The notes under the pieces: model-generated
The model's input: only the letters and a program-made list of their open reading frames with translations
What the model was told of the DNA's origin: nothing
The model's database searches: none
Part shown: piece by piece, positions 43,393 through 58,260 of the stretch
Position numbering within the stretch: the first letter of the stretch is position 1
Layout: each line of letters starts with the position of its first letter
Assembly (NCBI GenBank): GCA_963810125.1
Contig: CAWEMK010000001.1
Span: forward strand, 86,694-150,693
Direction of reading: 5' to 3'
DNA length: 64,000 bases
Source: an uncultured Alphaproteobacteria bacterium
GTDB taxonomy: Bacteria; Pseudomonadota; Alphaproteobacteria; Rhizobiales; Xanthobacteraceae
Program-made: the position numbers and the translations under genes

Positions 43393-44829
43393 GTGACGTT
43401 TAGGATGACGAACGGGCCGATCATTGAAACAGATATCCCGGCGCGGCTCGATCGCCTCCCATGGGGACGCTTTCACACGCTGGTAGTCATCGCCCTCGGT
43501 GTCACGTGGATCCTCGACGGCCTCGAGGTCACGCTTGCCGGCAGCCTGGCGGGCGCTCTGAAAGAAAGTCCGAGTTTGCATTTTTCAAACACGGACATTG
43601 GTTTTACAAGCAGCGCCTATCTCGCTGGCGCCACGCTCGGAGCGATTTTTTTCGGTTGGCTGACGGATCGGCTCGGTCGCAAAAAACTTTTTTTCGTAAC
43701 GCTCGCCGTCTACCTCACGGCGACAGCCGCCACCGCCGCCTCGTGGAATGTCGAAAGTTTCGCGCTTTTTCGTTTTCTCACGGGTGCCGGAATCGGCGGC
43801 GAATATTCCGCCATCAATTCGACCATCCAGGAACTGGTTCCCGCGCGGGTGCGCGGCCGGAATGACCTGATGATCAACGGCAGCTTCTGGATTGGGGCTG
43901 CGCTGGGTGCACTCGGCTCATTGGTTGTGCTCGACCCGCATGTCATCGACCCCGAGCTCGGTTGGCGTCTTGCATTCCTGATTGGCGCCGCCCTGGCCGG
44001 CGTGATTTTCCTGATGCGGCTCTGGATTCCCGAAAGTCCGCGCTGGTTGATAACGCATGGTCACGCTGACGAGGCGGCTCGTGTTGTCGCCAGCATAGAA
44101 AGCCAGTTTCCGGACCTTCCGCCGGAGCACGACCTGCCACGCGTTCGTCTGCGCGCGCGCAAATCAACATCGCTTCGCCTGGTGGCCTTTACCTTGTTCA
44201 AGCAATATCGGCGCCGGACGGTCGTCGGACTAAGCCTCATGGCCTCGCAGGCGTTTTTCTACAATGCCATCTTTTTTACGTACGCGCTTATCCTGACCGA
44301 CTTTTATGGCATCGCGTCGGACCAGGTCGGCTGGTATTTGCTGCCCTTTGCAATTGGAAACTTCACAGGGCCTGTCCTGATCGGACGGTTTTTCGACACT
44401 CATGGCCGCAGGCTGATGATTGCCCTGACCTACGTTTCCTCCGGTGTGCTATTGGCGACAACTGGCTGGCTTTTCGCGCGCGACCTTATTGGCGCCGGGA
44501 CGCAAACGGTGTGCTGGATGGTGATCTTTTTCTTTGCATCATCGGCAGCGAGTTCGGCCTATCTCACGGTCAGTGAGACCTTTCCGCTTGAAATTCGGGC
44601 GCTAGCGATTGCATTTTTTTACGCGGTCGGGACCGGTATCGGCGGCATTATCGGGCCGCTGCTGTTTGGCGCGCTCATCGACACAGGTTCGCGCACGAGC
44701 GTATTTGCAGGCTATTTGATCGGCGCGGTCTTGATGATCGTCGCGGGATGCATCGCCTGGCGCTGGGGCGTCGACGCCGAGCGCAAATCGCTGGAAGCCG
44801 TCGCCCGGCCGCTGACGTTTGTCGATTAA
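43393..44829 (+). CDS. MFS transporter (metabolite:H+ symporter-like)
   Basis: 478 aa with about 12 hydrophobic helices. RLDRLPWGRFH N-terminus and GWLTDRLGRKK loop motif. The start is GTG 43393 or ATG 43405. Confidence 0.85.
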   Translation: MTFRMTNGPIIETDIPARLDRLPWGRFHTLVVIALGVTWILDGLEVTLAGSLAGALKESPSLHFSNTDIGFTSSAYLAGATLGAIFFGWLTDRLGRKKLFFVTLAVYLTATAATAASWNVESFALFRFLTGAGIGGEYSAINSTIQELVPARVRGRNDLMINGSFWIGAALGALGSLVVLDPHVIDPELGWRLAFLIGAALAGVIFLMRLWIPESPRWLITHGHADEAARVVASIESQFPDLPPEHDLPRVRLRARKSTSLRLVAFTLFKQYRRRTVVGLSLMASQAFFYNAIFFTYALILTDFYGIASDQVGWYLLPFAIGNFTGPVLIGRFFDTHGRRLMIALTYVSSGVLLATTGWLFARDLIGAGTQTVCWMVIFFFASSAASSAYLTVSETFPLEIRALAIAFFYAVGTGIGGIIGPLLFGALIDTGSRTSVFAGYLIGAVLMIVAGCIAWRWGVDAERKSLEAVARPLTFVD

Positions 44830-44886: not shown

Positions 44887-45603
44887 TTAGCCCGACGTCA
44901 CAAGATCGCGCAGCGCGTCCGGAGCAAAAATAACGATCCCGCCGCGTTCGAGCTTGAGCCACTTCCGGCGCTGCCAATCCTGCAATTGCTTGTTTGCGCT
45001 TTCCCGCGACACGCCGATCATCTGACTTATTTCACGCTGGGTGACATAAATCTTGGTGCTGGGCCGTGCGGTCGCCGATGGCTGGTAGAGGTGCAAGAGG
45101 ACCTTGGCGAGGCGGTTCGGTAACCCGAGGAAAACAATATCCTCGACCTGCTCGCTCGTGCGGCGCAACCGCGCGCACAGAATATTGATCAATCGTATCG
45201 CGACTTCCGGATCATCCCGCAGTATCGGGATGAAATCGCGGCGCTCGATAACCATCAGTTCACAATTGTCGATAGCAACCGCGTCAGCGGAGCGCTGCCC
45301 TCCGTCGAGAAATGCAATTTCCCCGAAGAGTTCACCGGGGACGACCAGGTTGAAAATTGCGTCTTTCCCCTGTTCGGACGGCGCACTGATTCTCACGGCA
45401 CCGGCTCGAACCGCATAAAGCTTCGAGCCGATATCGCCTTTGTGAAATATGGCTGCGCCTTTTTTTACTCTTGTCGTAATGACACGGGGCGCGATCCGAT
45501 CGATGATCGTATGGCCCAGATCCTTGAAAAATGGGTGGGCGCGAAGCAACGCATGCTTGTCGAATGATTGCGTTTGACTATTCTTGCTTGCGCCCATTGC
45601 CAT
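44887..45603 (-). CDS. Crp/Fnr family transcriptional regulator
   Basis: cNMP-binding fold (GELFGEIAFLDGGQRSADAVA) and a C-terminal HTH (TQREISQMIGVSRESANKQL). ATG 45603 lies within ORF 44887..45633. Confidence 0.85.
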   Translation of the reverse strand: MAMGASKNSQTQSFDKHALLRAHPFFKDLGHTIIDRIAPRVITTRVKKGAAIFHKGDIGSKLYAVRAGAVRISAPSEQGKDAIFNLVVPGELFGEIAFLDGGQRSADAVAIDNCELMVIERRDFIPILRDDPEVAIRLINILCARLRRTSEQVEDIVFLGLPNRLAKVLLHLYQPSATARPSTKIYVTQREISQMIGVSRESANKQLQDWQRRKWLKLERGGIVIFAPDALRDLVTSG

Positions 45604-45967
45604 CTTACATTTCGCCCCACCAGAAGCTCTCAAGACGAAACATACGATAAAATAGCCCGACAGGCAGGCTATCTCGTCAATGAATATTCAAATCTTACTT
45701 TGGCTGTTTAACTCTAACAGTGAAACAATTCGACTAAGTTCTCTAAAATACATCCATTTTCAGGAGCGGTCTGAAATGCACCGCGAATACCCGTATTTCC
45801 GGCCCGGCTGGCCCGCATTGCCATGTGCAGCCGGAATTTCCGGCTGGCCTGCGGGCCTATCGGTCACGTGAGTTAGCCCAACCGTGACGGAACGGACGGT
45901 CGGCCACCATTCACACTGCGTGCATGAGACCGTACAGTAGGCCCCATCCCGGGCTTGGAGGGCAAAC

Positions 45968-47176
45968 ATGGACGGGCCGAAAAAAGTCGCCATCGGTTGC
46001 CAGGGCGGCGGAATGCATGCTGCTTTCGAGGTCGGCGTCCTCACCGAAATCCTCAAGGACATCCGCGACAACAAGCGCATCGAACTTGTCGGCTTGAGCG
46101 GGACCTCGGCCGGCGCCTTGTGTGCATTGATGGTCTGGTACGGCCTTGCTCCGAAGCCTGGAAGCCCCGGCTCTGCCGATGAAGCCATCGAAAAGCTCAA
46201 CGGCTTCTGGGACGACTTCGTTGCGAGCACGGGCGCCGAGACTGCGCTGAATTTTCTGACTTACGGCGCATTTTGGGCGGAAGAGAAAGAGATTCCGGTG
46301 CTTGGCGTAAACGCGCCAATCCTCGGTCTCAATCCGTACGGCGCACTCTTTAAGGCGCTCGCCGCCAGCCTGCCGAGTCTTGGCATACGCAAACAATATT
46401 TTGATCTGGAGGAGATGCTTGCCAAGGCCTGTCCGGATTTCGACCGGATCAACTGGCCAGACTTGACGACGCGCGTGCTGATCGGCGCCTCGGAGGTCGT
46501 CAATGGTTTTGAAACCGTATTTGACTCTGACGTCAATAAGAATACGCAGCACGAAAATAAAGGCATGCACGCCGTAAAAGTTACCAAGGACAGATCTCGT
46601 TACTGGCGCCAGAAATTGCCGCTCACTTTGTCCGGGGTCGCCGCATCAGGAACATTGCCCTCTTTACGGGAAGCCGAACACATCAAGCCGGGCGGCCACT
46701 ACTGGGACGGCCTTTACTCGCAGAATCCGCCCGTGCGCGAGTTCTTCGATCCGCCGGTGCAAAAGCCCTCGCCCTCGGCAGGGCCCAAACATGTGCCCGA
46801 TGAACTGTGGATCATACGCATCAACCCACAGCAATGGCCGGAAGTGCCGTCATCCAACAAAGACATCCAGGACCGCCAAAACGAACTGATGGGAAATCTG
46901 TCGCTGAACAAAGACCTGGATTTTATTATGACGGTGAATGCCTGGACTGAACGCTACGCACGCCAACAATTTGCGAAAGACCACAAGCCGGTGACGGTAC
47001 GCACGATCAAGATGGAGAAAATGACCGCGGACAACCTGTCATATTCATCCAAGTTTGACCGCAGCCGCGCCTTCATGGACGAGCTGCGCAAGGAGGGCCG
47101 CAAGGTGACCCGGGAGTGGCTCGACCGCTGGCACAAAGGCAAGGCCGGCAGCTATCCCGAGGACGCAGCGTATTGA
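45968..47176 (+). CDS. patatin-like phospholipase
   Basis: Oxyanion GCQGGGMHAAF, nucleophile elbow GTSAG, catalytic DG (YWDGLYSQNPP). Strong SD ggaggg lies 6 nt before the ATG. Confidence 0.85.
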   Translation: MDGPKKVAIGCQGGGMHAAFEVGVLTEILKDIRDNKRIELVGLSGTSAGALCALMVWYGLAPKPGSPGSADEAIEKLNGFWDDFVASTGAETALNFLTYGAFWAEEKEIPVLGVNAPILGLNPYGALFKALAASLPSLGIRKQYFDLEEMLAKACPDFDRINWPDLTTRVLIGASEVVNGFETVFDSDVNKNTQHENKGMHAVKVTKDRSRYWRQKLPLTLSGVAASGTLPSLREAEHIKPGGHYWDGLYSQNPPVREFFDPPVQKPSPSAGPKHVPDELWIIRINPQQWPEVPSSNKDIQDRQNELMGNLSLNKDLDFIMTVNAWTERYARQQFAKDHKPVTVRTIKMEKMTADNLSYSSKFDRSRAFMDELRKEGRKVTREWLDRWHKGKAGSYPEDAAY

Positions 47177-47228
47177 ATAATCCGATGATGTCGCCGGGCA
47201 AACGAACCCAAAGGACGATGGTGCTCAG

Positions 47229-47633
47229 ATGCCGAATGAGAAAAAAAGCAGCTCAGACGATATTCAAGGTTTCAAAGACAGCATTTTCAGGAATTTTTCC
47301 TTGCTGGCGTTACCGTGGGTGTCCTTCCAGCGCGACATGCTCGCAATTTTAAAGAAAGGCATTGAAGATACCAGTCATGTCAAACCGGTTCAGAAACTGA
47401 CATTGCTTGAACTGCACGCTCTGATGATGGTCCTGGATCCATCGCGAACGTGGAGAAGCCCCTTTGATGCTGATTTTGAAAAGCGCGTGGAAGATACATA
47501 CAAAGAAGCCTTCCCCAAACTGCTTTCCGGTTCCATTCACTTTATCGAAGCCCAGGAGGCAATCTTGCAGCATATGAGTGACGCACTCATCACGCTAAAG
47601 GATGGCAACAAAACCAAAAGCCCCAGCAAGTAG
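47229..47633 (+). CDS. hypothetical protein (AT-rich orphan)
   Basis: 134 uninterrupted codons in clearly AT-richer DNA (23 of 60 G+C in 47341-47400 by my count). An open frame this long is unlikely by chance at that composition. No motif recognised. Confidence 0.5.
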   Translation: MPNEKKSSSDDIQGFKDSIFRNFSLLALPWVSFQRDMLAILKKGIEDTSHVKPVQKLTLLELHALMMVLDPSRTWRSPFDADFEKRVEDTYKEAFPKLLSGSIHFIEAQEAILQHMSDALITLKDGNKTKSPSK

Positions 47634-47645
47634 AAATATAGCGGG

Positions 47646-47680
47646 TCTCATCTGGCTGAATCGACGCAGATGAGATTTCT
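47646..47680 (+). terminator. Rho-independent terminator-like hairpin
   Basis: Perfect 9-bp stem tctcatctg (47646-47654) / cagatgaga (47667-47675), a 12-nt loop, then tttct. It starts 13 nt after the stop of the orphan ORF. Confidence 0.55.
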
Positions 47681-47743
47681 GCATCAGTTTATTTTGCGTG
47701 CGCACACTGAATTAAAAATGCTTGCGGCGGTCGAGGTGCCAAG

Positions 47744-50700
47744 ATGAGTGATGTACGGCGAAACATTGACCTCGCGATCATCGGTCTTTCCTGTCGATTT
47801 CCTGGCGCGGCCACCGCCGACGAGTATTGGAAGAATTTGTGCGACGGCGTTGAGTCGATCGCTTTTTTTTCAGATCAGGACCTTGTTGCAGCCGGCGTCG
47901 ACCCTGCCCTGGTCGCTAATCCACGGTACGTAAAGGCTGCGCCGATGCTGCGGGACGTCGAGATGTTCGACGAATCGTTCTTCGGTTACTCCCCCAAAGA
48001 CGCCGCACTGATGGACCCGCAGCATCGCTTGTTCCTGGAGGTGTGCTGGGAGACATTCGAAAACGCGGGCTATGACCCGGTTGGCTACCCCGGGAAAGTT
48101 GGTGTGCTCTCGACCGCCGGCGGCGTCGTTACAAGCTATCTTCTGGCAAAATTGCACCACGCAGATTTTCCTGGCCAGACAGCCAGCACTTCGCACATCA
48201 ACAATGACAAAGATTTCCTGAGTACCCGCGTTTCCTACAAGCTGAATCTCAGAGGCCCCAGCTTTACGATTCAGTCGGCGTGCTCGTCGTCTTTGCTGGC
48301 AGTCCACCAGGCATGTCAGATCCTCAGGTTCGATGAGTGCGATATGATGCTGGTCGGAGGCTCGGTAGTACGCGTGCCCCAGATCGAGGGGTATTTGGCA
48401 GAAAAACGAAACGTTCATTCGCTCGACGGGCACTGCCGTCCCTTCGACTCGGTTGGTCAGGGGACTATTTTTGCCAGCGGTGTCGGTGCCGTGTTGATCA
48501 AGCCCCTGCAGCGCGCTGTCGCCGATCGCGACCATATTCTTGCGGTGATCAAAGGGACTGCGGCGAATAACGACGGGTCCGCCAAAAGCAGCTACACCGC
48601 GCCGAGCCTGGGCCAGCAGTCCCAGGCGGTCGTTGATGCCTTGAATTTGGCTGGAGTCAGCGCTGACAGCATTGGCTATGTCGAATGCCACGCCACCGGC
48701 ACGACCGTAGGCGACCCGCTGGAAATCGAAGCCCTAAGCATGGCCTTCCGAAAGGAAACTGGCCGCAAGCAATACTGTGCCATCGGTTCGGTCAAGGCCA
48801 ACATCGGGCATCCGGAACAGGCCGCGGGAATCGCCGGCCTTATCAAAACCGCGCTTGTGCTTCATCACAAAAAGATTCCGCCGAGCATCAATTATGAAAC
48901 ACCGAATCCGGCAATCAACTTCGCATCGTCGCCGTTTTACGTAAACACGAAGCTCCAGGATTTTCCTCGTGCTGACACGCCGCGGCGAGCCGCGCTCAAT
49001 AGTTTGGGAATCGGCGGCACGAATGCTTTCGCCATCCTCGAGGAGGCGCCGCCGCCCGGCGCGATCGCACACCAGTCGCCAGACCAATTTCCGTGCCTGG
49101 TCACCCTCTCCGCCAAAAGTGCTGACGCATTGGTGGCGCGTGTCGAGCAACTTCTGAACTGGCTCAACGACAATCCCGACGCACCGATTGGTGATCTTTG
49201 CTACACCACCAACGTCAGCCGAAGCCAGTTTGCCTTCCGCTTCGCAGCGTCCGCCCGATCAGTAGCGGAGCTGCAGAAGCACCTTGCATCATGGCTGCGA
49301 ACGGCGGCCGATCCGGCGAATTTACGACGCACCGGCAGTGCGCCAATCGCGTTCATGTTTTCCGGCCAGGGATCACAGCATGCGGGCATGGCCGCACGGC
49401 TCTATCGCACACACTCTGTTTTTCGGAATGTCATGGATCGCTGTCATGCCTTGGCGAAATCGGATCTTGAGCACGGCTTGCTCGACGTGATTTTTGCAAA
49501 GGACAGCGATGCGGCATTGGTCAACCGCACCGACTACACTCAACCTGCGCTGTTTGCCGTTGAATATGGCCTCGCCGAGCTCATGAAATCCTGGGGCATC
49601 GCACCCGACGCAGTGATTGGGCATAGCCTGGGAGAGTTCGTCGCTGCCTGTGCAGCGAATGTCATGACGCTCGAAGACGCCATGCGTCTGGTCATTGCTC
49701 GCGGTGCCTTGATGCGCCAATTGCCGAACGGCGGCATGGCCGCGATATTCGCGTCAGAATCCGTGGTGCGTGAGTTCATAGACAAGAGCGCGCCCCGGTT
49801 GGCTGTGGCCGCAATGAATGGGCCCTTGAATTCAGTCGTGTCAGGCGACCGGGATGAATTGAAAGCGCTATTGCAAGAGTTGGACCGACAAAACATTGGC
49901 TATCGGGAATTACAGGTTTCCAACGCTTTTCACTCGGCAAGTACGGAGCCCATTCTTGATGATCTCGAAAATATTGCGAGCCAGATCAAGTACAACCCGC
50001 CCAAATTACCCCTGATATCCAACCTCACCGGCGGGCTGATGTCGGCCGCGCCTGATAAAATCTACTGGCGGCGGCACCTTCGTGAACCAGTGCGGTTCGG
50101 AGACGGGATGCATGCGTTGGATGAGCTCGGCTGCCGGACGTTTGTTGAGGTCGGCCCACACCCGGTGCTGCTGCCAATCGCACAGGCTTGCCTTGGACAA
50201 AAAGCCAGGTCCGCCGGCTGGGCAGCTACGCTCAACCGTCAAAAGTCGGACGCCGACTCAATGTCCGAAATGCTGGCCGCGCTGTATCGCGCCGGCCACG
50301 ACATAAATTGGGCTGCTGTGCATGCCGACGCGTCGTGGCGCCGAATTCCCTTGCCCACTTACCCCTTCCAGCGCAAGCGCCACTGGATCGAAGACAACGC
50401 GATCCGTCCCGAACAAGTACGAACCGTTGCCGAACGACTTCATCCGCTGGTGGGCGCTCGCATAAAATCTACGGCTAATGAGGTCTGTTATGAGGCGCGC
50501 TACGGCGTCCACCAGGCCAGCTTCCTTACCGATCATAGAGTTGCAGGATCCATCGTCCTTCCAACCACGGCCGAACTGGAGGCAGCCACGGTCGTCGGCC
50601 GGATGCATTTCGCAACGTCGCAGATCAGTTTCGACAATGCGATGCATCACCGGGCGATGTCGTTTTTCAACGGCGAAGATCGGACTGTGCGGATGGTGGT

Positions 50701-53700
50701 CACTCCGCTGAAATCCGACAAAGCAAATTTCAAACTGGTAAGCGCGGACACTGACGACCCGAAGGTCTGGCAAACCCACATGACGGGCACGCTGCGCAAG
50801 TCCGAGGCGCCGTCCGGACCGGCATTTTCGGTGAAGCAGGTCCGGGCCCGGTGCCCGCAAACATTGCCTGTTGCCGACTTCTATGACCGGCTTGACCGGC
50901 TTGGGCTCGAATATGGACCGAGCTTTCGCGGCGTGCGGGAATTGCACCTCGGCCAAAATGAGGCGCTAACCAAAGTGCGGCTTCCGGACGGATTTGCAGA
51001 TGCGCAATTCGTGATGCACCCCGCGTTTTTGGACGCATGCCTGCACGCTTATCCTTTCATACTTGATGGTGCGGAGAAGGCCGAAAGAGATCGCCGCAAG
51101 GCCTACCTGCCCGTCTCGCTGGAAGGCTTCCGCTGCTACCAGGACGGGACCGACAATGCATGGGTGCACACCAGACTGCGGAGTGTCGATAAAGACGATA
51201 CGCAGGTGATCGACATTCGGGTTTACGACGAGGCCGAGCGGCCGATCGCAGATCTGGACGGACTGACCGTCCGCCTGTTGCCAATCGATAAAGTGCAACC
51301 CTCGAGCGCACGCACGGACAACTTGTTCTATCGGCCGATCTGGCGAAAGAGCGTTAGAAATTCTACCAGCCCTGAAAAGGCGCACCCGCCCGCGAGCTGG
51401 ATGATCTTTGCCGATGCAAAAGGTGTCGGTGTTGCGCTGGCCGGCAGGCTGGAAGCCGCTGGCCATCATTGCCACCTCGTCTATAGGGACAATGCTTTCG
51501 CCCACCCGGGCAAACGAACATGGACCATCAATGAAAGGCAGCCGCCCGATTTTCGCCGATTGCTGGAGCAATTCGCTGCGAGCGAGACGCTGCGATGCGA
51601 CGGCGTCGTCTATCTATGGGGGTTGGATGCCCCGTCTTTCGACGGCCTGACGCTTGCGCGATTGAAGAGCGGCAACGAGATGATGTGCCGCGGGGCGCTC
51701 GCGATCTTGCAGGCCCTTGCCGATACCCGGTCGACCATTCCGATCGGCGGCGGCCTCTGGTTTGTAACAACAAACACTCAGAAGACAGAAGGCGAGAACC
51801 AGCTTGTTGATCCGGTCCAGGCGCCGCTCTGGGGTTTAGGACGAACCGCTGCGATCGAATATCCGGCCATTTGGGGCGGGCTAATCGACTTGCAACTGGA
51901 TAATGACCTGACGCCCGATGTTGATTTGCTGGCAGCGGAATTGCTCCACCCGGATGGCGAGACGCAGATTGCCATCTCCGCCAGCGGAGAGCGCCATATC
52001 CATCGGCTCGTCACGCAATCGATTGACGCGCTGCCGGCCCAGCAACCGCGGGTGCGCGGGGACGCAACCTATCTTGTGACCGGCGGCCTGGGAATGTTGG
52101 GGCGCCGTGTCGCCCGATGGCTCATCAGCAACGGTGCGAAGCACCTTGTCCTGACGGGTCGAAATGCAAGTCCGGAAGAGGCACAGAAACTATTCAGCCC
52201 GGCAGATACGCTCGGTGTATCAATCAAGCTCGTGGCCGCAGATATTAGCCGCGACGACGACGTCAGCCGCCTCATCCGTACGATCAGCAAAGATGGCCCG
52301 CCGTTAAGCGGCGTCGTGCACTCGGCCGGCATCTTGGATGATGGAATACTGGCTCAACTGGACTGGGATCGGTTTGCGCGCGTGTTCGCTCCAAAAATTT
52401 ATGGAAGCTGGCTTCTGCACGAACACACGAAATCGCTGGAGCTCGACTTCTTCATCTTGCAATCTTCTTTATTGAGCTTGTTGGGCTCTGCCGGCCAGGC
52501 GAACTATAGCGCCAGCAATACTTTTCTTGATTCCTTGGCAGCTCACCGCCGCTCGGCAGGCTTGTCGGCCACGGCGATCAACTGGTCCGCCTGGTCAGAG
52601 GGTGGGTTGGCCACCCGTTCGGGCGCTCGCGGCGAGGAAATGTGGTCGTCGCTGGGCGTGAAATTTATTTCACCCGATCTCGCAATGCAGGGGTTCGACA
52701 GACTGATGCACCGCGATGTGGAGCAGATCGCGGTCGCAATTGCCGATTGGTCCACTTACGCCGGCAGGATGGGCAACCCCCCGTTCCTTTCCGAACTCGA
52801 TCCTGCGGACGCGGGATCTGGATCGTATCAATCAGCGCCGCGAAGGCGCGTTGCGGCTGCCCCTCCGGTTCCGGTGAACGGCGACGCACGCCAGCAGCTT
52901 TTGAGCAGATTGCAACAGCGCATCATGGCGGAGCTTGGCTTCGCTGAGCCGATCGATCCAGACCGGCCATTAAATGAAATCGGGTTGGATTCGTTGAGGT
53001 CGGTGACGCTCGCGAATAATCTGGAGGACGAATTCGGGATACTGATTTCGATCTCGGAGCTCATCACCGGACCGACGATCAACCAGCTGTCGGAACACCT
53101 GTCCGGCCTGTTTGCACAACGCGCAAAGAACGACGCCGCGGAATTCGCTGCGGCGGCGGACTCGGCGCCGGCAATTGCGGCCAATGCTCACGCGCCGGAC
53201 GAAGCGACAATCGAACCTGCTGAAAACGGAAACGGCGCGCTGGATTATTATGATGTCGGAGCAATCGGGGTGACACCGCCGGCCAATGTGTCGGGCAACG
53301 AAGCCGCCGCGGTTACTCAACCAGCCGGTGAGACTGCACCGCGCAGTGCCGGAAAATGGTTGATTGCACCGCGGCCCAATCCCGACGCCAAAGTCCGTTT
53401 GTTCTGTTTTCCCTACGCGGGCGGTGGCCTCGTGTCTTTCCGGTCATGGGCGCAGCTGTTCAATGGCGCCGTGGAGGTGGTGGCAGTCGAGCCGCCGGGA
53501 CGCGGAACCCGCATCAATGAAACGCCCGTCGACGACCTAGATAGTTTTGTCGAGGGCCTTTTGCCTGAAATGGCTCAATGGCTGGACAGGCCATCTGCTT
53601 TTTTTGGCCACTGCCTGGGCGGACTGACAATGTTTGCGACGCTGTGTGCCCTGCCGGATGCTGGCGCGCGCTTCGTCAAGCATGCCTTTGCCTGCGGCGT

Positions 53701-54157
53701 GCGCCCTCCGCATCTGCTGAAGCGCAGGCGGGAGTTCGAGGACAATCTGGTCTACGACATGATGCTGCGCGGGGAATTTGACCTGAGAATTCCTCCTTAC
53801 GCCCAGACCGACGAGATCTTCGCGGATATCATCCGGCAATTCGATACGCCTGCGGCCAACAGGATGCTGGAGATACCGAAGCTGAGGAAGGTTTTGTTGC
53901 CGACAATCCGCGCCGAGTTCGGCATGGCCTATAAATATGAGTATCAGCCTGTCGAGCCCTTCGTCTTTCCGATCAGCAGCTTCGTCGGCGATGCGGACCC
54001 TTGGGTCTCGGAAGAAGACTCCGCAGGTTGGGGCGAGTTTACCCGCGGCGGATTCACCAACCACGTGCGCAAAGGTTCACATTTTCTGATGGCGGATGAC
54101 GGCGAATACATTCTGGAAACAATTAACCGGGAATTTGAAACTTTCGTTGTGCAGTGA
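47744..54157 (+). CDS. type I polyketide synthase, single module KS-AT-DH-KR-ACP-TE
   Basis: KS: Cys180 (TIQSACSSS, 48281-48283), CHATGT, NIGH. AT: GHSLGE (Ser628), NAFHS. DH: HRVAGSIVLP (His931). KR: YLVTGGLGMLG, LDD motif, NYSASN. ACP: GLDSL (Ser1750). C-terminal type II thioesterase-like domain: FCFPYAGGG, GHCLGG, GSHF. Confidence 0.92.
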   Translation: MSDVRRNIDLAIIGLSCRFPGAATADEYWKNLCDGVESIAFFSDQDLVAAGVDPALVANPRYVKAAPMLRDVEMFDESFFGYSPKDAALMDPQHRLFLEVCWETFENAGYDPVGYPGKVGVLSTAGGVVTSYLLAKLHHADFPGQTASTSHINNDKDFLSTRVSYKLNLRGPSFTIQSACSSSLLAVHQACQILRFDECDMMLVGGSVVRVPQIEGYLAEKRNVHSLDGHCRPFDSVGQGTIFASGVGAVLIKPLQRAVADRDHILAVIKGTAANNDGSAKSSYTAPSLGQQSQAVVDALNLAGVSADSIGYVECHATGTTVGDPLEIEALSMAFRKETGRKQYCAIGSVKANIGHPEQAAGIAGLIKTALVLHHKKIPPSINYETPNPAINFASSPFYVNTKLQDFPRADTPRRAALNSLGIGGTNAFAILEEAPPPGAIAHQSPDQFPCLVTLSAKSADALVARVEQLLNWLNDNPDAPIGDLCYTTNVSRSQFAFRFAASARSVAELQKHLASWLRTAADPANLRRTGSAPIAFMFSGQGSQHAGMAARLYRTHSVFRNVMDRCHALAKSDLEHGLLDVIFAKDSDAALVNRTDYTQPALFAVEYGLAELMKSWGIAPDAVIGHSLGEFVAACAANVMTLEDAMRLVIARGALMRQLPNGGMAAIFASESVVREFIDKSAPRLAVAAMNGPLNSVVSGDRDELKALLQELDRQNIGYRELQVSNAFHSASTEPILDDLENIASQIKYNPPKLPLISNLTGGLMSAAPDKIYWRRHLREPVRFGDGMHALDELGCRTFVEVGPHPVLLPIAQACLGQKARSAGWAATLNRQKSDADSMSEMLAALYRAGHDINWAAVHADASWRRIPLPTYPFQRKRHWIEDNAIRPEQVRTVAERLHPLVGARIKSTANEVCYEARYGVHQASFLTDHRVAGSIVLPTTAELEAATVVGRMHFATSQISFDNAMHHRAMSFFNGEDRTVRMVVTPLKSDKANFKLVSADTDDPKVWQTHMTGTLRKSEAPSGPAFSVKQVRARCPQTLPVADFYDRLDRLGLEYGPSFRGVRELHLGQNEALTKVRLPDGFADAQFVMHPAFLDACLHAYPFILDGAEKAERDRRKAYLPVSLEGFRCYQDGTDNAWVHTRLRSVDKDDTQVIDIRVYDEAERPIADLDGLTVRLLPIDKVQPSSARTDNLFYRPIWRKSVRNSTSPEKAHPPASWMIFADAKGVGVALAGRLEAAGHHCHLVYRDNAFAHPGKRTWTINERQPPDFRRLLEQFAASETLRCDGVVYLWGLDAPSFDGLTLARLKSGNEMMCRGALAILQALADTRSTIPIGGGLWFVTTNTQKTEGENQLVDPVQAPLWGLGRTAAIEYPAIWGGLIDLQLDNDLTPDVDLLAAELLHPDGETQIAISASGERHIHRLVTQSIDALPAQQPRVRGDATYLVTGGLGMLGRRVARWLISNGAKHLVLTGRNASPEEAQKLFSPADTLGVSIKLVAADISRDDDVSRLIRTISKDGPPLSGVVHSAGILDDGILAQLDWDRFARVFAPKIYGSWLLHEHTKSLELDFFILQSSLLSLLGSAGQANYSASNTFLDSLAAHRRSAGLSATAINWSAWSEGGLATRSGARGEEMWSSLGVKFISPDLAMQGFDRLMHRDVEQIAVAIADWSTYAGRMGNPPFLSELDPADAGSGSYQSAPRRRVAAAPPVPVNGDARQQLLSRLQQRIMAELGFAEPIDPDRPLNEIGLDSLRSVTLANNLEDEFGILISISELITGPTINQLSEHLSGLFAQRAKNDAAEFAAAADSAPAIAANAHAPDEATIEPAENGNGALDYYDVGAIGVTPPANVSGNEAAAVTQPAGETAPRSAGKWLIAPRPNPDAKVRLFCFPYAGGGLVSFRSWAQLFNGAVEVVAVEPPGRGTRINETPVDDLDSFVEGLLPEMAQWLDRPSAFFGHCLGGLTMFATLCALPDAGARFVKHAFACGVRPPHLLKRRREFEDNLVYDMMLRGEFDLRIPPYAQTDEIFADIIRQFDTPAANRMLEIPKLRKVLLPTIRAEFGMAYKYEYQPVEPFVFPISSFVGDADPWVSEEDSAGWGEFTRGGFTNHVRKGSHFLMADDGEYILETINREFETFVVQ

Positions 54158-54186: not shown

Positions 54187-57100
54187 TCAGGTGCGGTAGG
54201 AACTCTTTTCCAGCCTTACCTTGGCGCGAACGAGATCCGCGGTGTCAAATCCTTCGCTGAACGTCTGGTAGATCTCGCCGAGTTGCAATCGGCCCTTGTC
54301 CGCGTCCTTTTGCAGATCGTGCAAATCGCACATGCTCAGGCAAATTTTTAGCTCAAGCGATTTTGCCTTCTGTTCGTGCGCGATCGTAAGGCCTTTGGAA
54401 AAATAATGCTGCGCCTGATCCAGGTTCTGGTTCGATCGCAGGTATGTTTCGCCGAGCAAACGATATATTTCCGCCGCATAGAAGCGCTCGACGTTCTCGC
54501 CTTCGAGCCTCAATTGCACCTGCTCCAGGAATTCGAGCGCCTGCCCATAGCGTTTGTTCTTGATGCATACATCGACCAGCAAACCCAGGGAGTACGAATT
54601 AAACAATAACGCGCCCATCGCCCTTTCTTTTTCCAGGCCTTCCTGAATTTCGGCAATGCCTTTCTCGAATTCGCCTTGCTGGGCGCTTGCCCAGCCCCGC
54701 AAAATCAGGGCCATGGCGCGATAGTGCACAAACTCATGCTCTTCGCAGAGCGCGATGGCCGCGTCAGCCTGGCTTGCCACGATCGCGGACTCGCCGCGCA
54801 GCTGGTGCACGCGCAGGCTTATTGTTCGCGCCATTGCATCGCTGAACGGATGCCGGGCATCATCGGCGTAACGGCGGGCGTCCGCACATTGCCGCAACGC
54901 CTGATCTGGATACCCGAGAAACCAAAGGGCCAGCGCGTCGTATGACCTGACATGAACGCGCGGGTCCTGCGCTGACAGGTCGAAATACGCTGCGGCCTTG
55001 CCGTCCTCGCATAATCCAAGACCGCGCTCCAGCTCGGTGTGGGCGGCGGAAAATTTGCCTTGTGCAAATGAGGTGAACCCGAGGGCTTCGTGGGCAAGAA
55101 CCCGGCAGACTGAATCGTCGATGCTCTCGGCGGATTTCAGCAAATATTCGGCAAGGGCTTGCGCCTCAGGAAGGGCCGCACGCAGGAAATTCCAGGTCCA
55201 CATACCAAACACGGCCGGAAAGGTATGTTCATCAAGTCCGCTCTCCTTGCACAGCTGGAGTGCGCGCGTATACGCGCGCTTGACACTGTCGGAACTCCAG
55301 CCCTTTGTTGTCCGCAGGGAATTGCCGAGCGAAGTTTGAAGCAGCAGCTCGAGCTTGTTGCGCACCATTGGGTCGTCGATGCCGGGAACCAATTTCAATC
55401 CCCGTTCCAGATGACCAACGGCAGCGTTCGCCGATCGGCTCAGCGCGAGGTTACCGGCTTTTAGCCAGAAGTTGATCGCGGGCTCAACGAGACCAGCTTC
55501 CGTGAAGTGGTGAGCCACGATTTCCGGCTGGCTTGCGACGATGTCGGGAAACTTTTCTTCCATCTTGCGCGCGATCTGGCCGTGCAACTGCTGCCGCCGG
55601 CTCTTGAGCAGGCTCTCATAGGCCACGTCCCGCACCAGGGTGTGCTTGAAGCTATAGACCGCTTCCGGTGGCTCGCCATGGCGGAACACAAGTTCAGCCT
55701 CCTCAAGCTGGGCGAGAGCCTGTTTCAATGCCGGTTCTTTGCGCCCAGCCACCTCACGAATGAGGGAATAAGAGAACTCGCGCCCGATCGCTGCTCCGAT
55801 TTGGCCGATCTCTTTCACCGGCGCCATCCGGTCGAGGCGTGCCATCAAGGAGTCCTGGAGTGTCGCCGGAATGGCGAGCGGGAGCAGCGCTCCACCGAGT
55901 TCGATAGCCGTCGCCGTCCTTGACCAGGATGTCTCCTTCAAGCACCGCTTTCGTGAGTTCCTCGACGAACAACGGATTGCCGTCGGTCTTGGCGATAATC
56001 TGGTTCATCACTTCGGAAGGCAGCGCATGGCCGTGGGTTACTTGCGTAACGATGCTTTCAACGTTGCCACGATCGAGGCGGCCGAGCTTTATGACGCCGA
56101 CATTTGGAAGCCCGACCCAGGGCGGTTCGAATTCAGGCCGAAGGGTGAAAAGGGCAAGGGCCGGTATCTGGCGCATTCGATCGATCATGAGATCCAGCAG
56201 CTCGAGGGAGGTGGCATCGGCCCAATGTGCATCCTCGAACAAGAGCAAGATCGGTTTCTGATGCGCCAGCCTTTCGAATTGATCGAGCAATGCCGCCAGC
56301 GTGCGGCGAAGCTGCTGCGCGGGACTGAGCGTCAAGGCCGGATACCGGCCGCTCAATGGGATCGACAGCAGCGCCGCCAGCAGCGGGACTGCATTCCGGG
56401 CTTGCGACCCGGTCTTGCCGAGAAGCGTCTCCAGTCTGTCGAGGCGCTGTTGGGACGTATCGTCCGCCTTGAACCCCGCCGCCCGCTCCAGTTGGACGAT
56501 GAACGGATAAAGCGTGCTGTTGGTGTGGTACGGCGAACACTGGTAACGCAGGACCGTGTGCGGTTCGTCGGCGATGCGCTCTTCGAGCGCCGCCGCGAGA
56601 CGGGATTTGCCAATCCCCGGTTCACCTGAGATCAGCACAACCTGACCCTCACCTTTCCAGGCCAGGTGTTGGCGCTTCTGCAGGAAATCGATTTCCTCCT
56701 CGCGGCCAATAAGATTTGTCAGGCCGGCCGTATGGACCGCCGCAAAGCGGCTCTCGGAGGCCGACACGCCATCAACCGTCCATGCCGCAATCGGCTCGGA
56801 AAAACCCTTGAACGTGTGCGGACCAAGATCGCGCAGAAAGAACCGATCGCCGATCAGCCGCCGTGTGGAGGTGGCGATTACGATTGTCCCCGGCTCCGCC
56901 AGGGCCTGAACGCGGGCCGCCAGGCTTGGCGTATCGCCAACCACAATATTCTCGCGCAAGGCGCCTTCACCACCCACCACCACCACGCCGCTGGCGATAC
57001 CGATCCGGACGGCGAGCGGCTCTTGCGCGGGCGTCTTGAGCTGTGCAACCGCGGCAATAATATCGAGCCCCGCGCGTATGGTTCGCTCGGCATCGTCCTC

Positions 57101-57553
57101 GTGGGCGCGCGGGTAACCGAAATAGGCGAGGATCCCGTCGCCACGGAATTCGGCAAGGAAGCCGTCAGAGGCGAGCGCGATGCGGGCGCAGGCCGCCTGA
57201 AAGGCATCGATTACGGCACCCATGTCTTCCGGATCAAGCCGCGCCGAAAGCGCAGTCGAGCCCACGAGATCGCAGATCATCACGGTCAAGTGGCGTCGCT
57301 CGCCGCCAACCGTCGGGGCGTAGTTGCCAGGCGTATCTTTTGCGGCTTCCCGCGCGGTGGGCGCACCGGGAACGCTGCCCGCCATCATTTTGATGGCCCT
57401 GATGAGCCGTTTCCTGTCGCCCAGCGGGATCCCGAGTTTTTCGAGATCGCCTTCCGTCAACTCAGGCAGCACATCAGTGTCGATAGCGTTCTGGACGAAC
57501 GCCGACTCATACTGTCCGAGTCCCAAAGTTCGCAGCCAGCCGCCAATGTCCAT
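54187..57553 (-). pseudogene. SAM domain-class III nucleotide cyclase-STAND/AAA ATPase-TPR protein, interrupted by a single-base insertion near 55903
   Basis: ORFs 55754..57553 and 54187..55941 overlap in different frames. Removing one base after codon Tyr (ggc tat C gaa ctc) restores ...DGDGYELGGALLPLAIPATLQDSLMARLDR.... N-terminal SAM-like (WLRTLGLGQYESAFVQNAIDTDVLPELTEGDLEKLGI), cyclase (VMICDLVGST, FRGDGILAYFG), Walker A GEPGIGKS, Walker B LLLFEDAHWAD, and a long TPR-like C-terminus. Confidence 0.8.
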
Positions 57554-58078
57554 GGTAGCGCCTTAATCCCGTTCCGGACTCCCGGAGGCTGTCACCAACC
57601 CAAAATGCACGACCTAAGGGCCGCAGCGCGGCTTACCTTGCGTCGTCTGAACAAAACCCGACTGTAGTTAAAGCAGACGCCGGGCGGGGGATCTGATGCC
57701 CCACTAACCGTTATTCTACTTTAAATACCGATTGAACAAAATGAGCCATGCGGCCATCCCGATTCTCCTGAGCGGCTCATTGGGCGTCATTGCTGCCCCG
57801 ATCTGTCGAATTCCACGGATTATTTTAACTTCGGCAACGGCTGGCCGAAACGCACCATTGGTTGCGCAGGCTGGGAATTGTCCCTCGCCTCGCCGGCCGG
57901 TGCGTTGCGCGACCGCATACGACATCCGCAGCGTGGATACCGATAAAGCCCCGCCTCCTTGAAATCATTCCGGCGCGGGCGCGCGACCGGGTTCCAAAAT
58001 TGTTTTGATGCGAGTGTGAGTTAGCTCACCATCGAAAGCATGAGCCGGTGGTACCGACCTTCATAACGGAGGTCGACC

Positions 58079-58252
58079 ATGCGTCACCGTACCCATGCTG
58101 ACCGACAGAGGCCGCGCCGGCATAGCGGCGAAAGCAATAACCGCACCGACACCGTCGTGGCGACGGTCTGGCTTGCGTTCTACGTACTGGCGATCGTCGT
58201 CGCGATTTCATCCCCGGCGATAACGCGGGCCATTGATCTGGCAGCTCGATAG
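58079..58252 (+). CDS. 57-aa small membrane protein (not in the >=60-aa ORF track)
   Basis: ATG 58079 is preceded by ggagg with 6-nt spacing. One TM segment (VVATVWLAFYVLAIVVAISS) follows an Arg/His-rich N-terminus. It ends 8 nt before the next gene. Confidence 0.45.
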   Translation: MRHRTHADRQRPRRHSGESNNRTDTVVATVWLAFYVLAIVVAISSPAITRAIDLAAR

Positions 58253-58260
58253 TCGCGGAC

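What the first reader, a model, noticed from the sequence alone, without database searches (positions are those of the whole stretch)
45968..54157. Orphan lipid cassette: patatin-like lipase, AT-rich unknown gene and a loading-domain-less single-module PKS
The three plus-strand genes begin right where the conserved-looking core ends.
- The PKS starts directly with KS (residue 8) and has no loading AT, CoA-ligase or starter ACP. All catalytic residues are present (Cys180, Ser628, His931, KR Tyr, ACP Ser1750).
- It carries a malonyl-type AT (NAFHS), a B-type KR (LDD motif) and no ER or MT.
- The KS-AT-DH-KR-ACP order equals that of bacterial iterative aromatic PKSs (6-methylsalicylate and naphthoate synthase type). 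It also equals any single reducing module that extends a fatty acyl starter.
- A neighbouring patatin lipase could supply or release acyl chains.
- No PPTase, tailoring enzyme or transporter is adjacent.
- A terminator-like hairpin (47646-47680) separates the PKS from the first two genes.
- I cannot predict the product from sequence alone.
Basis: partly seen in the sequence, partly recalled or inferred. Interest (0 to 1): 0.65.

Follow-up and report, generated by a model that had tools for sequence, protein, structure and literature searches.

The report
Conserved PKS–patatin–cyclase gene cluster
The three genes are real, but they are part of a larger uncharacterised gene cluster, conserved in soil bacteria, in which a one-module polyketide synthase with an unusual cysteine release domain always travels with a lipase-like enzyme and a sensor-type nucleotide cyclase.

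Summary
The PKS is KS-AT-DH-KR-ACP-TE, not KS-AT-DH-KR-ACP.

The TE resembles free-standing type II thioesterases (RifR). Its nucleophile is an invariant Cys (GHCLGG, Cys1957) instead of Ser.

The cassette is not isolated. Across 72 related loci the PKS is linked to a SAM–nucleotide cyclase–STAND ATPase–TPR gene and to a patatin-like gene. In the window's clade (A) it is also linked to the 134-aa protein and often to a Crp-like regulator. The cyclase gene lies at 54187-57553 on the minus strand. The linkage survives at least four different gene orders and occurs in several phyla.

A sister clade (B) adds a loading cassette of PPTase, acyl ligase, SDR and free ACP. The window's clade lacks it within about 10 kb.

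In this window the cyclase gene carries a 1-nt insertion. It is the only indel against a 98.9%-identical contig.

No characterised relative was found, so the product is unknown. Cultured relatives exist, for example Azospirillum sp. B510.

Verdict: a real, conserved, uncharacterised PKS cluster. It is a new variant of a known kind and of moderate interest.

The parts
44887..45633 (-). Crp/Fnr-family regulator (cNMP-binding domain plus HTH), divergent from the patatin gene. Frequent fifth member of the cluster.
   Evidence: Pfam cNMP_binding E 7e-23 and HTH_Crp_2 E 1e-14. NCBIfam CRP 101 bits, below cut-off. Present within about 10 kb in 15 of 27 clade A loci, in different positions. dN/dS 0.05-0.07.
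45968..47176 (+). Patatin-like acyl hydrolase (402 aa), with GGGMH oxyanion motif, GTSAG nucleophile (Ser47) and DG motif at 247.
   Evidence: Pfam PF01734 41 bits against cut-off 27.7. Motifs read. Its gene moves to the far side of the cyclase gene in other genomes but stays in the cluster. dN/dS about 0.1.
47229..47633 (+). Family-specific 134-aa protein ('small134'), predicted all-helical, AT-rich. Always immediately upstream of the PKS in the window's clade.
   Evidence: No Pfam or NCBIfam family. Only 88 homologues among 5.8 billion proteins, and 72 representatives among 1.84 billion. Present in 26 of 27 clade A loci. Remote homologue upstream of a Rokubacteria PKS, hhalign 82%, E 1e-5. 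AF2 model helical at pLDDT 63. GC 46.7%. dN/dS 0.07-0.18.
47641..47682 (+). Hairpin in the small134-PKS spacer (10-bp stem, 12-nt loop); weak terminator candidate or attenuator.
   Evidence: Fold -19 kcal/mol, z -2.0. Not found by the terminator scan. Conserved only in the closest relatives; the spacer is 22-50 nt in eight other loci.
47744..54157 (+). Single-module type I PKS, 2137 aa. Domains in window coordinates: KS 47771-48898, AT 49352-50281, DH 50441-51292, KR 51317-52600, ACP 52907-53101, TE 53396-54130.
   Evidence: Pfam domains. Catalytic residues. Full-length homologues at 65-93% identity in 22 loci. dN/dS 0.14-0.17.
53396..54130 (+). Terminal thioesterase domain of type II TE kind with a Cys nucleophile. 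Triad is Cys1957 (GHCLGG), Asp2085, His2113.
   Evidence: PF00975 E 9.5e-25. Best solved relatives are RifR (E 2e-33), RedJ, the surfactin TE subunit and TesA, plus the Cys-TE of ObiF1 (E 1e-6); no type I PKS TE matched. Cys is invariant in all close homologues where the motif was found, and in a clade at 42-47% identity. Also present in Azospirillum sp. B510.
54187..57553 (-). SAM - class III nucleotide cyclase - STAND ATPase (AAA_16) - TPR gene, convergent with the PKS. In this window it is split into ORFs 55754-57553 and 54187-55941.
   Evidence: Pfam. Both halves hit TIGR03903. A single 1121-aa product in 98.9%-identical contigs. Present in 27 of 27 clade A and 16 of 21 clade B loci. dN/dS 0.05-0.14.
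55900..55901 (-). One-base insertion (plus strand GAGTTCGA versus GAG-TCGA) that frameshifts the cyclase-STAND-TPR gene.
   Evidence: Alignments. It is the only gap in a 21,210-bp alignment at 98.85% identity. The same insertion is in L021.

Best explanation
The finding is the plus-strand half of a conserved, uncharacterised biosynthetic cluster.

**Core genes**
- A single-module reducing type I PKS (KS-AT-DH-KR-ACP-TE).
- A patatin-like acyl hydrolase.
- A cluster-specific small helical protein.
- A SAM-nucleotide cyclase-STAND-TPR protein.
- Often a Crp-like regulator.

**Proposed working**
1. The AT loads malonyl units.
2. The KS condenses them onto a starter that is supplied in trans. In the sister clade the starter comes from a dedicated acyl ligase, SDR and free ACP. 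In this clade the source is unknown.
3. The B-type KR and the intact DH give a trans-2-enoyl chain. After several rounds this would be a polyenoyl chain.
4. The chain passes by transthioesterification to Cys1957 of the type II-like TE.
5. It is released by hydrolysis or transfer. The patatin-like enzyme acts as a second acyl hydrolase or transferase that moves the chain onto or off a lipid.
6. The STAND-TPR cyclase makes a cyclic nucleotide that the Crp-like factor reads. Together they act as the cluster's own control module, comparable to a LAL regulator split into sensor, messenger and transcription factor.
7. In this genome the cyclase gene is broken by a 1-nt insertion, so control may be altered.

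**Shown:** the domain content, the catalytic motifs, the Cys nucleophile, the conserved linkage, purifying selection and the frameshift.

**Inferred:** the starter, the number of extension cycles, the roles of the TE and the patatin in release, the direction of regulation and the identity of the nucleotide.
For: **Domains and motifs**
- Domains and active-site motifs are intact.
- The TE is type II-like with a Cys aligned to RifR Ser94 and a RifR-like Asp and His. ObiF shows that such a GXCXG TE takes the chain by transthioesterification (PMC6668435).

**Linkage**
- Counts among loci with enough flanking DNA:

| Partner | Clade A | Clade B |
|---|---|---|
| Cyclase-STAND-TPR | 27/27 | 16/21 |
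| Patatin | 20/27 | 19/21 |
| small134 | 26/27 | 0/21 |
| Crp-like | 15/27 | 2/21 |

- The linkage holds in at least four gene orders. These include a fully co-directional order of cyclase, small protein, PKS and patatin.
- It occurs in Xanthobacteraceae, Roseiarcus, Rhodospirillales, Entotheonella, Rokubacteria and a Blastocatellia bin.

**Loading cassette in the sister clade**
- Clade B has PPTase, FadD-like ligase, FabG-like SDR and free ACP directly upstream of the KS.
- In KS-only scores, KSs from hybrid NRPS/PKS systems come first (ClbC 408, 6mhl 366, 5elp 360 bits). DEBS, CurL and Pik KSs score about 290 and MAS about 250. This fits a KS fed from a separate carrier protein.

**The cyclase as a cluster regulator**
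- The cyclase protein matches TIGR03903, a cyclase-STAND family already tied to natural-product clusters. The Entotheonella orthologue scores 723 bits against a cut-off of 706.
- The TPR half hits TPR_MalT.

**Selection**
- All genes are under purifying selection, with dN/dS of 0.05-0.25.
Against: - No characterised homologue was found and no product is known. Ten full-text literature searches found nothing on this family.
- In the window's clade no ligase, free ACP or PPTase lies within about 10 kb (0 of 27), nor anywhere in the 64-kb window. Priming is unexplained.
- A C-terminal type II-like TE can be an editing domain rather than the release step, as in CylH (PMC5707447).
- The clade A cyclase domain has Glu for the substrate Lys and Ser for the transition-state Asn. 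cAMP synthesis, or any activity, is therefore uncertain.
- No CRP-type site was found upstream of the patatin gene, small134 or the PKS at up to 2 mismatches.
- Clade A and clade B patatins are not recognisably orthologous.
- Linkage does not give the direction of regulation.
Confidence: 0.55

Rival explanations
1. Signalling circuit. The PKS product is not merely regulated by the cyclase. It is the ligand sensed by the cyclase's TPR-STAND part, so that polyketide, cyclic nucleotide and Crp form an autoinducer-like loop.
For: - The PKS and the cyclase co-diverge and stay adjacent in both clades and in both orientations.
- STAND-TPR proteins of the MalT type are ligand-activated (established knowledge). 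The window's TPR half hits TPR_MalT.
- One round of KS, B-type KR and DH on a fatty acyl starter would give a 2-enoyl acid, the chemical class of DSF-type signals (inference).
Against: - There is no direct evidence.
- Genomic linkage fits plain pathway-specific regulation equally well.
- The clade A cyclase domain departs from the catalytic consensus.
- In this window the gene is frameshifted while the PKS stays intact.
Confidence: 0.15
2. One-shot lipid tailoring. The PKS performs a single extension of a fatty acyl chain taken from primary metabolism. The patatin then installs the 2-enoyl or 3-hydroxy product into, or removes it from, a membrane lipid.
For: - There is one module with no loading domain and one ACP in the window.
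- A patatin is always nearby.
- The cluster sits next to hopanoid genes in the closest relatives.
Against: - The hopanoid neighbourhood is not conserved beyond the closest relatives.
- Several family members carry tandem ACPs (L015, L019, L048). Tandem ACPs are more typical of iterative synthases (established knowledge).
- The KS is closest to KSs from hybrid NRPS/PKS systems, not to fatty-acyl-extending MAS or Pks13 KSs.
Confidence: 0.15
3. Iterative aromatic PKS of the 6-methylsalicylate or naphthoate type.
For: The KS-AT-DH-KR-ACP order of the first 1800 residues is the same. There is no loading domain.
Against: - A fused TE is present. Those synthases lack one (established knowledge).
- The DH has the full dehydratase motif set.
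- No NCBIfam or solved-structure hit points to that clade.
- The sister clade is primed by a ligase-ACP cassette.
- No aromatic-tailoring genes are nearby.
Confidence: 0.04
4. Anti-phage defence module. A STAND-TPR sensor with a nucleotide cyclase output activates a patatin effector, as in CBASS or Pycsar. The PKS would be a passenger or a chemical-defence arm.
For: - The cyclase domain gives weak PycC hits, E 8e-14.
- The combination of STAND plus TPR sensor, patatin and cNMP-binding proteins recalls defence logic.
Against: - The PADLOC hits are generic class III cyclase similarity.
- The patatin, small134 and TPR half have no PADLOC hit.
- The patatin has no cNMP-binding domain.
- The cluster is syntenic in a stable chromosomal neighbourhood among the closest relatives.
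- A 6.4-kb PKS is always present.
Confidence: 0.04
5. The cluster is decaying or silent in this particular genome.
For: - There is a 1-nt frameshift in the cyclase gene, shared with L021.
- L021 holds only the KR-ACP-TE end of a PKS copy.
Against: - The 6.4-kb PKS ORF, small134 and the patatin gene are intact with all motifs.
- No other indel occurs in 21 kb against a 98.9%-identical contig.
- dN/dS is low, including both cyclase halves.
- The two cyclase halves remain open and could be expressed separately.
Confidence: 0.07

Closest known systems
Uncharacterised homologous clusters in cultured bacteria: Azospirillum sp. B510 plasmid pAB510d (AZL_RS37570 PKS, AZL_RS29395 patatin); Bradyrhizobium barranii, japonicum and elkanii plasmids; Burkholderia stagnalis
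   Same: - Full-length PKS homologues at 41-43% identity over 96-97% of the query.
- Azospirillum has the GHCLGG Cys-TE and a patatin gene overlapping the PKS stop.
- Bradyrhizobium and Burkholderia have ligase, SDR, ACP and PKS as in clade B.
   Different: - No cyclase-STAND-TPR gene lies next to them.
- There is no small134. The Azospirillum upstream ORF is unrelated.
- Bradyrhizobium and Burkholderia carry an extra alpha/beta hydrolase and a PPTase downstream. My pattern search found no GxCxG or GxSxG motif in their PKSs.
- None has a known product.
Cys-nucleophile thioesterase domains of ObiF (obafluorin) and SulM (sulfazecin)
   Same: - GXCXG motif, RifR-like position of the catalytic Asp, and sequence kinship to type II TEs.
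- ObiF1 is hit by the window TE at E 1e-6 (PMC6668435).
   Different: - Those are NRPS TEs acting on beta-hydroxy or beta-amino aminoacyl chains to make beta-lactone or beta-lactam rings.
- Here the TE ends a reducing PKS with an apparently active DH, so a beta-hydroxy substrate is not expected at release.
CylH C-terminal type II-like TE (cylindrocyclophane); AjuTE and JerTE
   Same: A type II-like TE fused to the end of a type I PKS (PMC5707447).
   Different: - CylH keeps GHSMG with Ser and edits rather than releases.
- The window domain has Cys.
- No downstream type III PKS takes the chain.
TIGR03903 'TOMM system kinase/cyclase fusion protein', and LAL-type (AAA plus TPR plus LuxR) pathway regulators
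   Same: - A cyclase-STAND-TPR core linked to a natural-product cluster.
- A MalT-like TPR region.
   Different: - The window protein has an N-terminal SAM domain instead of a kinase. It scores 281 + 229 bits against a cut-off of 706.
- No TOMM genes are nearby.
- Unlike LALs it has no DNA-binding domain. A separate Crp-like gene is present.
Bacterial iterative aromatic PKSs (6-MSAS, NcsB, AziB, ChlB1)
   Same: KS-AT-DH-KR-ACP order, no loading domain, malonyl-specific AT.
   Different: - The window protein has a fused TE and a full dehydratase motif set.
- Its cluster context is different.
- The KS clade was not tested.
KS domains of hybrid NRPS/PKS systems (ClbC 8xbl, 6mhl, 5elp; also 4wky and 4oqj)
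   Same: They give the highest KS-only scores, 360-455 bits against about 290 for DEBS, CurL and Pik and about 250 for MAS.
   Different: - Those KSs sit in multimodular hybrid lines and take aminoacyl or peptidyl chains.
- Here no NRPS is present. Clade B feeds the KS from a FadD-like ligase and a free ACP.
- The identification of 4wky and 4oqj as oxazolomycin KSs rests on memory only.

Membership tests
Type I (cis-AT) polyketide synthase, reducing module | KS Cys-His-His triad | tested here: met
   Cys180, His316 and His356. Pfam ketoacyl-synt E 1e-62.
Type I (cis-AT) polyketide synthase, reducing module | Integrated AT with GHSxG Ser, Arg, and a specificity motif | tested here: met
   GHSLGE Ser628, Arg653, and NAFHS (Phe indicates malonyl type). 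PF00698 E 6e-65.
Type I (cis-AT) polyketide synthase, reducing module | DH HxxxGxxxxP, YGP and DxxxQ/H motifs; KR NADPH site and Tyr; ACP DSL Ser | tested here: met
   His931, LEYGPSF at 1056, LDACLH at 1096, GGLGMLG at 1447, LDD at 1531, Tyr1588 and Ser1750.
Iterative aromatic PKS (6-MSAS, NcsB type) | Architecture ends at the ACP, with no fused TE | tested here: not met
   PF00975 thioesterase at residues 1885-2129.
Iterative aromatic PKS (6-MSAS, NcsB type) | KS falls in the iterative aromatic clade | not testable with these tools
   No reference sequences of that clade were available. Solved-structure ranking points elsewhere.
PUFA or heterocyst-glycolipid synthases (PfaA type) | Score above the TIGR02813 cut-off; tandem ACP array | tested here: not met
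   370 bits against a cut-off of 1010. There is a single ACP in the window.
Type II thioesterase (RifR, RedJ family) | Sequence similarity over the whole alpha/beta-hydrolase core | tested here: met
   RifR E 2e-33 over residues 3-262 of the domain. No type I PKS TE was hit.
Type II thioesterase (RifR, RedJ family) | GHSxG with a Ser nucleophile; free-standing protein | tested here: not met
   GHCLGG with Cys1957, fused to the PKS.
Cys-nucleophile TE (ObiF, SulM kind) | GXCXG motif with a RifR-like Asp and His arrangement | tested here: met
   Cys1957, Asp2085 and His2113 are invariant and align with the RifR triad positions. The definition comes from PMC6668435.
Cys-nucleophile TE (ObiF, SulM kind) | Forms a strained beta-lactone or beta-lactam from a beta-hydroxy or beta-amino acyl chain | not testable with these tools
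   This needs biochemistry. An intact DH argues against a beta-hydroxy substrate (inference).
Patatin-like phospholipase (PF01734) | Gly-rich oxyanion motif, GxSxG Ser, DG Asp, and a score above the gathering threshold | tested here: met
   GGGMH at 13, GTSAG Ser47, WDG at 246-248; 41 bits against 27.7.
TIGR03903 TOMM system kinase/cyclase fusion protein | Whole-protein score above the cut-off, an N-terminal kinase domain, and a TOMM neighbourhood | tested here: not met
   281 + 229 bits against 705.75. A SAM domain stands in place of the kinase, and there are no TOMM genes. The Entotheonella orthologue passes at 723 bits.
Class III adenylate cyclase (catalytically canonical) | Two metal Asp, substrate Lys, transition-state Asn and Arg | tested here: inconclusive
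   Both Asp and the Arg are present. Lys is replaced by Glu (AEFRGDG) and Asn by Ser (GDTPSLAAR) in clade A. Clade B keeps Lys and Asn.
CBASS or Pycsar anti-phage systems | PADLOC models for both the cyclase and an effector | tested here: not met
   Only generic PycC cyclase hits were found. The patatin has no hit.

The most novel reading that the evidence does not exclude
The PKS product is the cognate ligand of the neighbouring STAND-TPR nucleotide cyclase. The PKS, the patatin, the small protein, the cyclase and Crp would then form a self-contained polyketide-to-cyclic-nucleotide signalling circuit. This would be a previously undescribed kind of autoinducer system, spread through uncultured soil Alphaproteobacteria and reaching Entotheonella and Rokubacteria. 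The Cys-TE would give the signal its reactive or transferable acyl end.
Probability: 0.15. Interest if true: 0.8.

Novelty: new variant of a known kind. Interest (0 to 1): 0.5.

Why it matters
- Single-module orphan PKSs are common and usually uninformative.
- This one belongs to a family with three recurring, unexplained features:
  - a type II-like terminal thioesterase with an invariant Cys nucleophile;
  - obligatory company of a patatin-like enzyme;
  - tight linkage to a STAND-type nucleotide cyclase, which ties polyketide or lipid chemistry to cyclic-nucleotide signalling.
- The family is abundant in soil metagenomes (Pseudolabrys, Undibacter and other Xanthobacteraceae).
- It has cultured, genetically tractable relatives such as Azospirillum sp. 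B510 and Bradyrhizobium plasmids, so the questions are testable.
- If the cyclase senses or controls the product, this would be a new regulatory logic for biosynthetic clusters.

Tried and rejected
1. The homologue search with the full 2137-aa PKS timed out. The exact-sequence look-up found nothing. I worked from genome scans instead.
2. Is small134 a degenerate ACP replacing the free ACP of clade B? Rejected, hhalign probability 0.2%. A Rokubacteria locus has both a small134-like gene and the ACP cassette.
3. The AlphaFold model of small134 was too poor to search for folds (pLDDT 63, pTM 0.30). A profile search of 1.84 billion representatives found only 72 family members and no bridge to a known family.
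4. A CRP-site search (TGTGA-N6-TCACA, up to 2 mismatches) gave 16 hits against 17 expected. None lies upstream of the patatin gene, small134 or the PKS. Eyeballing upstream regions of small134 in 25 loci showed no shared motif.
5. The defence-system reading was tested with PADLOC. It gave generic cyclase hits only.
6. Rfam found no family in the whole window, so there is no known riboswitch in the PKS leader.
8. A genome scan with the clade B ligase asked whether clade A genomes hold the loader elsewhere.
9. The window was searched for ligase, ACP and PPTase homologues. None was found.

Full report
**1. The observation**

The three plus-strand ORFs exist exactly as stated: 45968-47176 (402 aa), 47229-47633 (134 aa) and 47744-54157 (2137 aa).

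- The first ORF passes Pfam's Patatin threshold, 41 bits against 27.7. It has the oxyanion motif, the GxSxG serine and the DG motif.
- The second ORF has no family in Pfam or NCBIfam. It is AT-rich, 46.7% GC against 59.4% for the window.
The other KS, AT and DH motifs are also present.
Residues 1885-2129 match the Thioesterase family PF00975 at E 9.5e-25.
- The enzyme is therefore KS-AT-DH-KR-ACP-TE. That removes the stated identity of domain order with the 6-methylsalicylate or naphthoate synthases.

**2. The thioesterase**

- By sequence the domain belongs with free-standing type II thioesterases. RifR scores E 2e-33, followed by RedJ, the surfactin TE subunit, TesA and human TE2.
- No type I PKS TE was matched.
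- Its nucleophile motif reads GHCLGG. Cys1957 aligns with the RifR serine. Asp2085 and His2113 complete the triad.
- The Cys is invariant wherever the motif was found among close homologues. It is also invariant in a clade at only 42-47% identity, and it is present in Azospirillum sp. B510.
- The only solved Cys-TE that the domain hits is ObiF1 (E 1e-6). The ObiF paper describes a GXCXG motif, a RifR-like triad and chain uptake by transthioesterification (PMC6668435).
- A caution comes from CylH. Its fused type II-like TE edits rather than releases (PMC5707447).

**3. The cluster is larger than the finding**

The window comes from an uncultured Xanthobacteraceae lineage of the Pseudolabrys and Undibacter kind. 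Relatives were found at 65-93% protein identity. JGI soil metagenome contigs match at 98.85% DNA identity over 21 kb.

Immediately downstream of the PKS and convergent with it lies a gene for a SAM domain, a class III nucleotide cyclase, a STAND ATPase (AAA_16) and TPR repeats.

I compared 72 distinct related loci from two genome scans. The table gives counts among loci with enough flanking DNA.

| Partner gene | Clade A (TE at least 60% identical) | Clade B (41-60%) |
|---|---|---|
| Cyclase-STAND-TPR | 27/27 | 16/21 |
| Patatin-like | 20/27 | 19/21 |
| small134, directly upstream of the PKS | 26/27 | 0/21 |
| Crp-like regulator | 15/27 | 2/21 |
| FadD-like ligase | 0/27 | 19/21 |
| Free ACP | 0/27 | 18/21 |

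The genes keep company through at least four arrangements:
- patatin, small134 and PKS, with the cyclase gene convergent, as in the window;
- small134 and PKS, then the cyclase and patatin genes on the opposite strand (L001-L003 and others);
- cyclase, small protein, PKS and patatin, all co-directional (L095);
- PKS followed co-directionally by cyclase and patatin (clade B).

Hosts include Xanthobacteraceae, Roseiarcus, Rhodospirillales, Candidatus Entotheonella, Rokubacteria and a Blastocatellia bin. This pattern argues for functional coupling rather than chance. The patatin subfamily of the window was PKS-linked in all three contexts I sampled.

**4. The sister clade explains the missing loading domain**

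- In clade B the PKS also starts at its KS.
- It is preceded by a PPTase, a FadD-like AMP ligase, a FabG-like SDR and a free 116-aa ACP with LGLSSLD.
- The ligase-SDR-ACP-KS arrangement is very widespread. Examples are Myxococcus, Corallococcus, Burkholderia stagnalis, Bradyrhizobium yuanmingense, a Streptomyces strain and Lyngbya. Bacillus velezensis has ligase, SDR and KS, but no free ACP was detected there.
- The family's KS is therefore fed in trans from a separate carrier protein.
- In keeping with this, KS-only scores against solved structures are highest for KSs from hybrid NRPS/PKS systems: 4wky 455, 4oqj 445, 8xjy 425, ClbC 408, 6mhl 366 and 5elp 360 bits.
- They are clearly lower for DEBS, CurL and Pik (about 290), MAS (about 250) and Pks13 (about 240).
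- This is a ranking, not a phylogeny.
- The window's clade has none of the loading genes within about 10 kb or in the 64-kb window. How it is primed remains open.
- small134 is not a degenerate ACP (hhalign 0.2%).
- A remote small134 homologue (82%, E 1e-5) sits upstream of a Rokubacteria PKS that also has the loading cassette.
- small134 belongs to a tiny family: 88 homologues, or 72 representatives among 1.84 billion proteins. It is predicted helical at low confidence and is under purifying selection.

**5. The cyclase gene**

- Both halves match TIGR03903, the 'TOMM system kinase/cyclase fusion protein'. This is a cyclase-STAND family already known from natural-product clusters.
- The Entotheonella orthologue passes the cut-off. 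The window protein does not, because it has a SAM domain instead of the kinase.
- Clade A cyclase domains keep both metal aspartates and the arginine. They have Glu for the substrate lysine and Ser for the transition-state asparagine. Clade B keeps the canonical residues. The nucleotide made, and even activity, are therefore uncertain.
- In the window the gene is split by a one-base insertion at 55900/55901.
- This is the only gap in a 21,210-bp alignment with contigs that call the gene as one 1121-aa product. The same insertion occurs in L021.
- A random assembly error is therefore unlikely. This strain probably carries a split or inactivated cyclase gene next to an intact PKS.

**6. The hairpin**

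- A 10-bp stem forms at 47641-47682, at -19 kcal/mol and z -2.0.
- It has no clean U-tract and is not reported by the terminator scan.
- It is conserved only among the closest relatives.
- Elsewhere small134 and the PKS are 22-50 nt apart, which suggests co-transcription.

**7. Mechanism and rivals**

The best-supported reading is a dedicated cluster in which:
- the PKS builds a malonyl-derived, trans-2-unsaturated (possibly polyenoyl) acyl chain on a trans-supplied starter;
- the chain passes to the Cys-TE;
- it is released or transferred with the help of the patatin-like enzyme;
- the STAND-TPR cyclase and the Crp-like factor control the cluster.

The alternatives are listed below.

| Reading | Confidence | Main point |
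|---|---|---|
| Product is the ligand of the cyclase (signalling loop) | 0.15 | Linkage fits it, but fits plain regulation equally well |
| One-shot lipid tailoring | 0.15 | Single module and nearby patatin; KS ranking and tandem ACPs in relatives argue against |
| Iterative aromatic synthase | 0.04 | Disfavoured by the TE, the DH motifs and the context |
| Anti-phage module | 0.04 | PADLOC gives only generic cyclase hits |
| Local decay of the cluster | 0.07 | Only the frameshift supports it |

All cluster genes show dN/dS of 0.05-0.25.

**8. Comparison with the known, and novelty**

- No characterised relative was found by NCBIfam, by solved structures or by ten full-text literature searches.
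- Cultured but unstudied relatives exist:
  - Azospirillum sp. B510 pAB510d, with the PKS carrying the Cys-TE and a patatin gene directly downstream;
  - Bradyrhizobium and Burkholderia replicons.
- The enzyme class is ordinary.
- The combination of a Cys type II-like TE, an obligatory patatin and a linked STAND cyclase is a new variant of a known kind.
- Interest is moderate. It would be high if the polyketide-to-cyclic-nucleotide link proves to be a signalling circuit.

Noticed in passing
window 32629-38767 (minus strand): A hopanoid biosynthesis block: squalene-hopene cyclase, an amine-oxidase-like gene, two squalene/phytoene-synthase-family genes and a GT2 glycosyltransferase. It is followed by DUF2336 (38977-40194), a dCache-PAS-GGDEF-EAL protein (40145-43195) and an MFS transporter (43393-44829). 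This is the 'conserved core' that ends before the finding. The neighbourhood is shared only by the closest relatives.
   Followed up: partly
window 58015-58030: A near-perfect CRP-type palindrome, TGTGAGTTAGCTCACC. Its 14-nt core is exactly conserved in all nine closest relatives. It lies between the cyclase gene and a LysR-like ORF, about 50 nt upstream of an unannotated 57-codon ORF at 58080-58253 that encodes a small hydrophobic protein. It is a possible target of the Crp-like regulator.
   Followed up: partly
window 55900-55901: A single extra base splits the cyclase-STAND-TPR gene. It is the only indel against 98.85%-identical metagenome contigs over 21 kb, and it is shared with L021.
   Followed up: yes
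window 56900-57300 (cyclase domain); loci of clades A and B: PKS-linked cyclases of the window's clade have Glu in place of the substrate-specifying Lys (AEFRGDG) and Ser in place of the transition-state Asn (GDTPSLAAR). The sister clade keeps Lys and Asn. This points to a possible change of nucleotide specificity or loss of activity.
   Followed up: partly
L055, L056, L058, L061, L062, L065, L066: A KR-less variant of the PKS (KS-AT-DH-ACP-TE) exists in clade B. It is still accompanied by ligase, SDR, ACP, patatin and cyclase genes. The free SDR may supply ketoreduction in trans.
   Followed up: no
L015/L044, L019, L048: Some family members carry two tandem ACP domains before the TE. The window has one ACP followed by a 90-residue Ala/Pro-rich linker.
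   Followed up: no
L099-L178: The FadD-like ligase of clade B belongs to a very widespread family (more than 600 genome hits). It occurs either as ligase-SDR-ACP-KS in Myxococcus, Corallococcus, Burkholderia, Bradyrhizobium, Streptomyces and Lyngbya (in Bacillus velezensis as ligase-SDR-KS with no free ACP detected), or as SDR-ligase without a PKS in many Chloroflexota and Acidobacteriota.
   Followed up: partly
L021/L023 (MAG MFD06298.bin.1.142, contig_60874): A second contig of a MAG that also has a full cluster (L020) holds only the KR-ACP-TE end of a PKS copy, next to the frameshifted cyclase gene. It could be a truncated duplicate, strain heterogeneity or a mis-join.
   Followed up: no
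window 58261-58755 and 61911-62567: A LysR-type ORF of only 164 aa (HTH domain only) and an outer-membrane efflux (OEP) ORF of only 218 aa look short for their families. They may be truncated or frameshifted genes.
   Followed up: no
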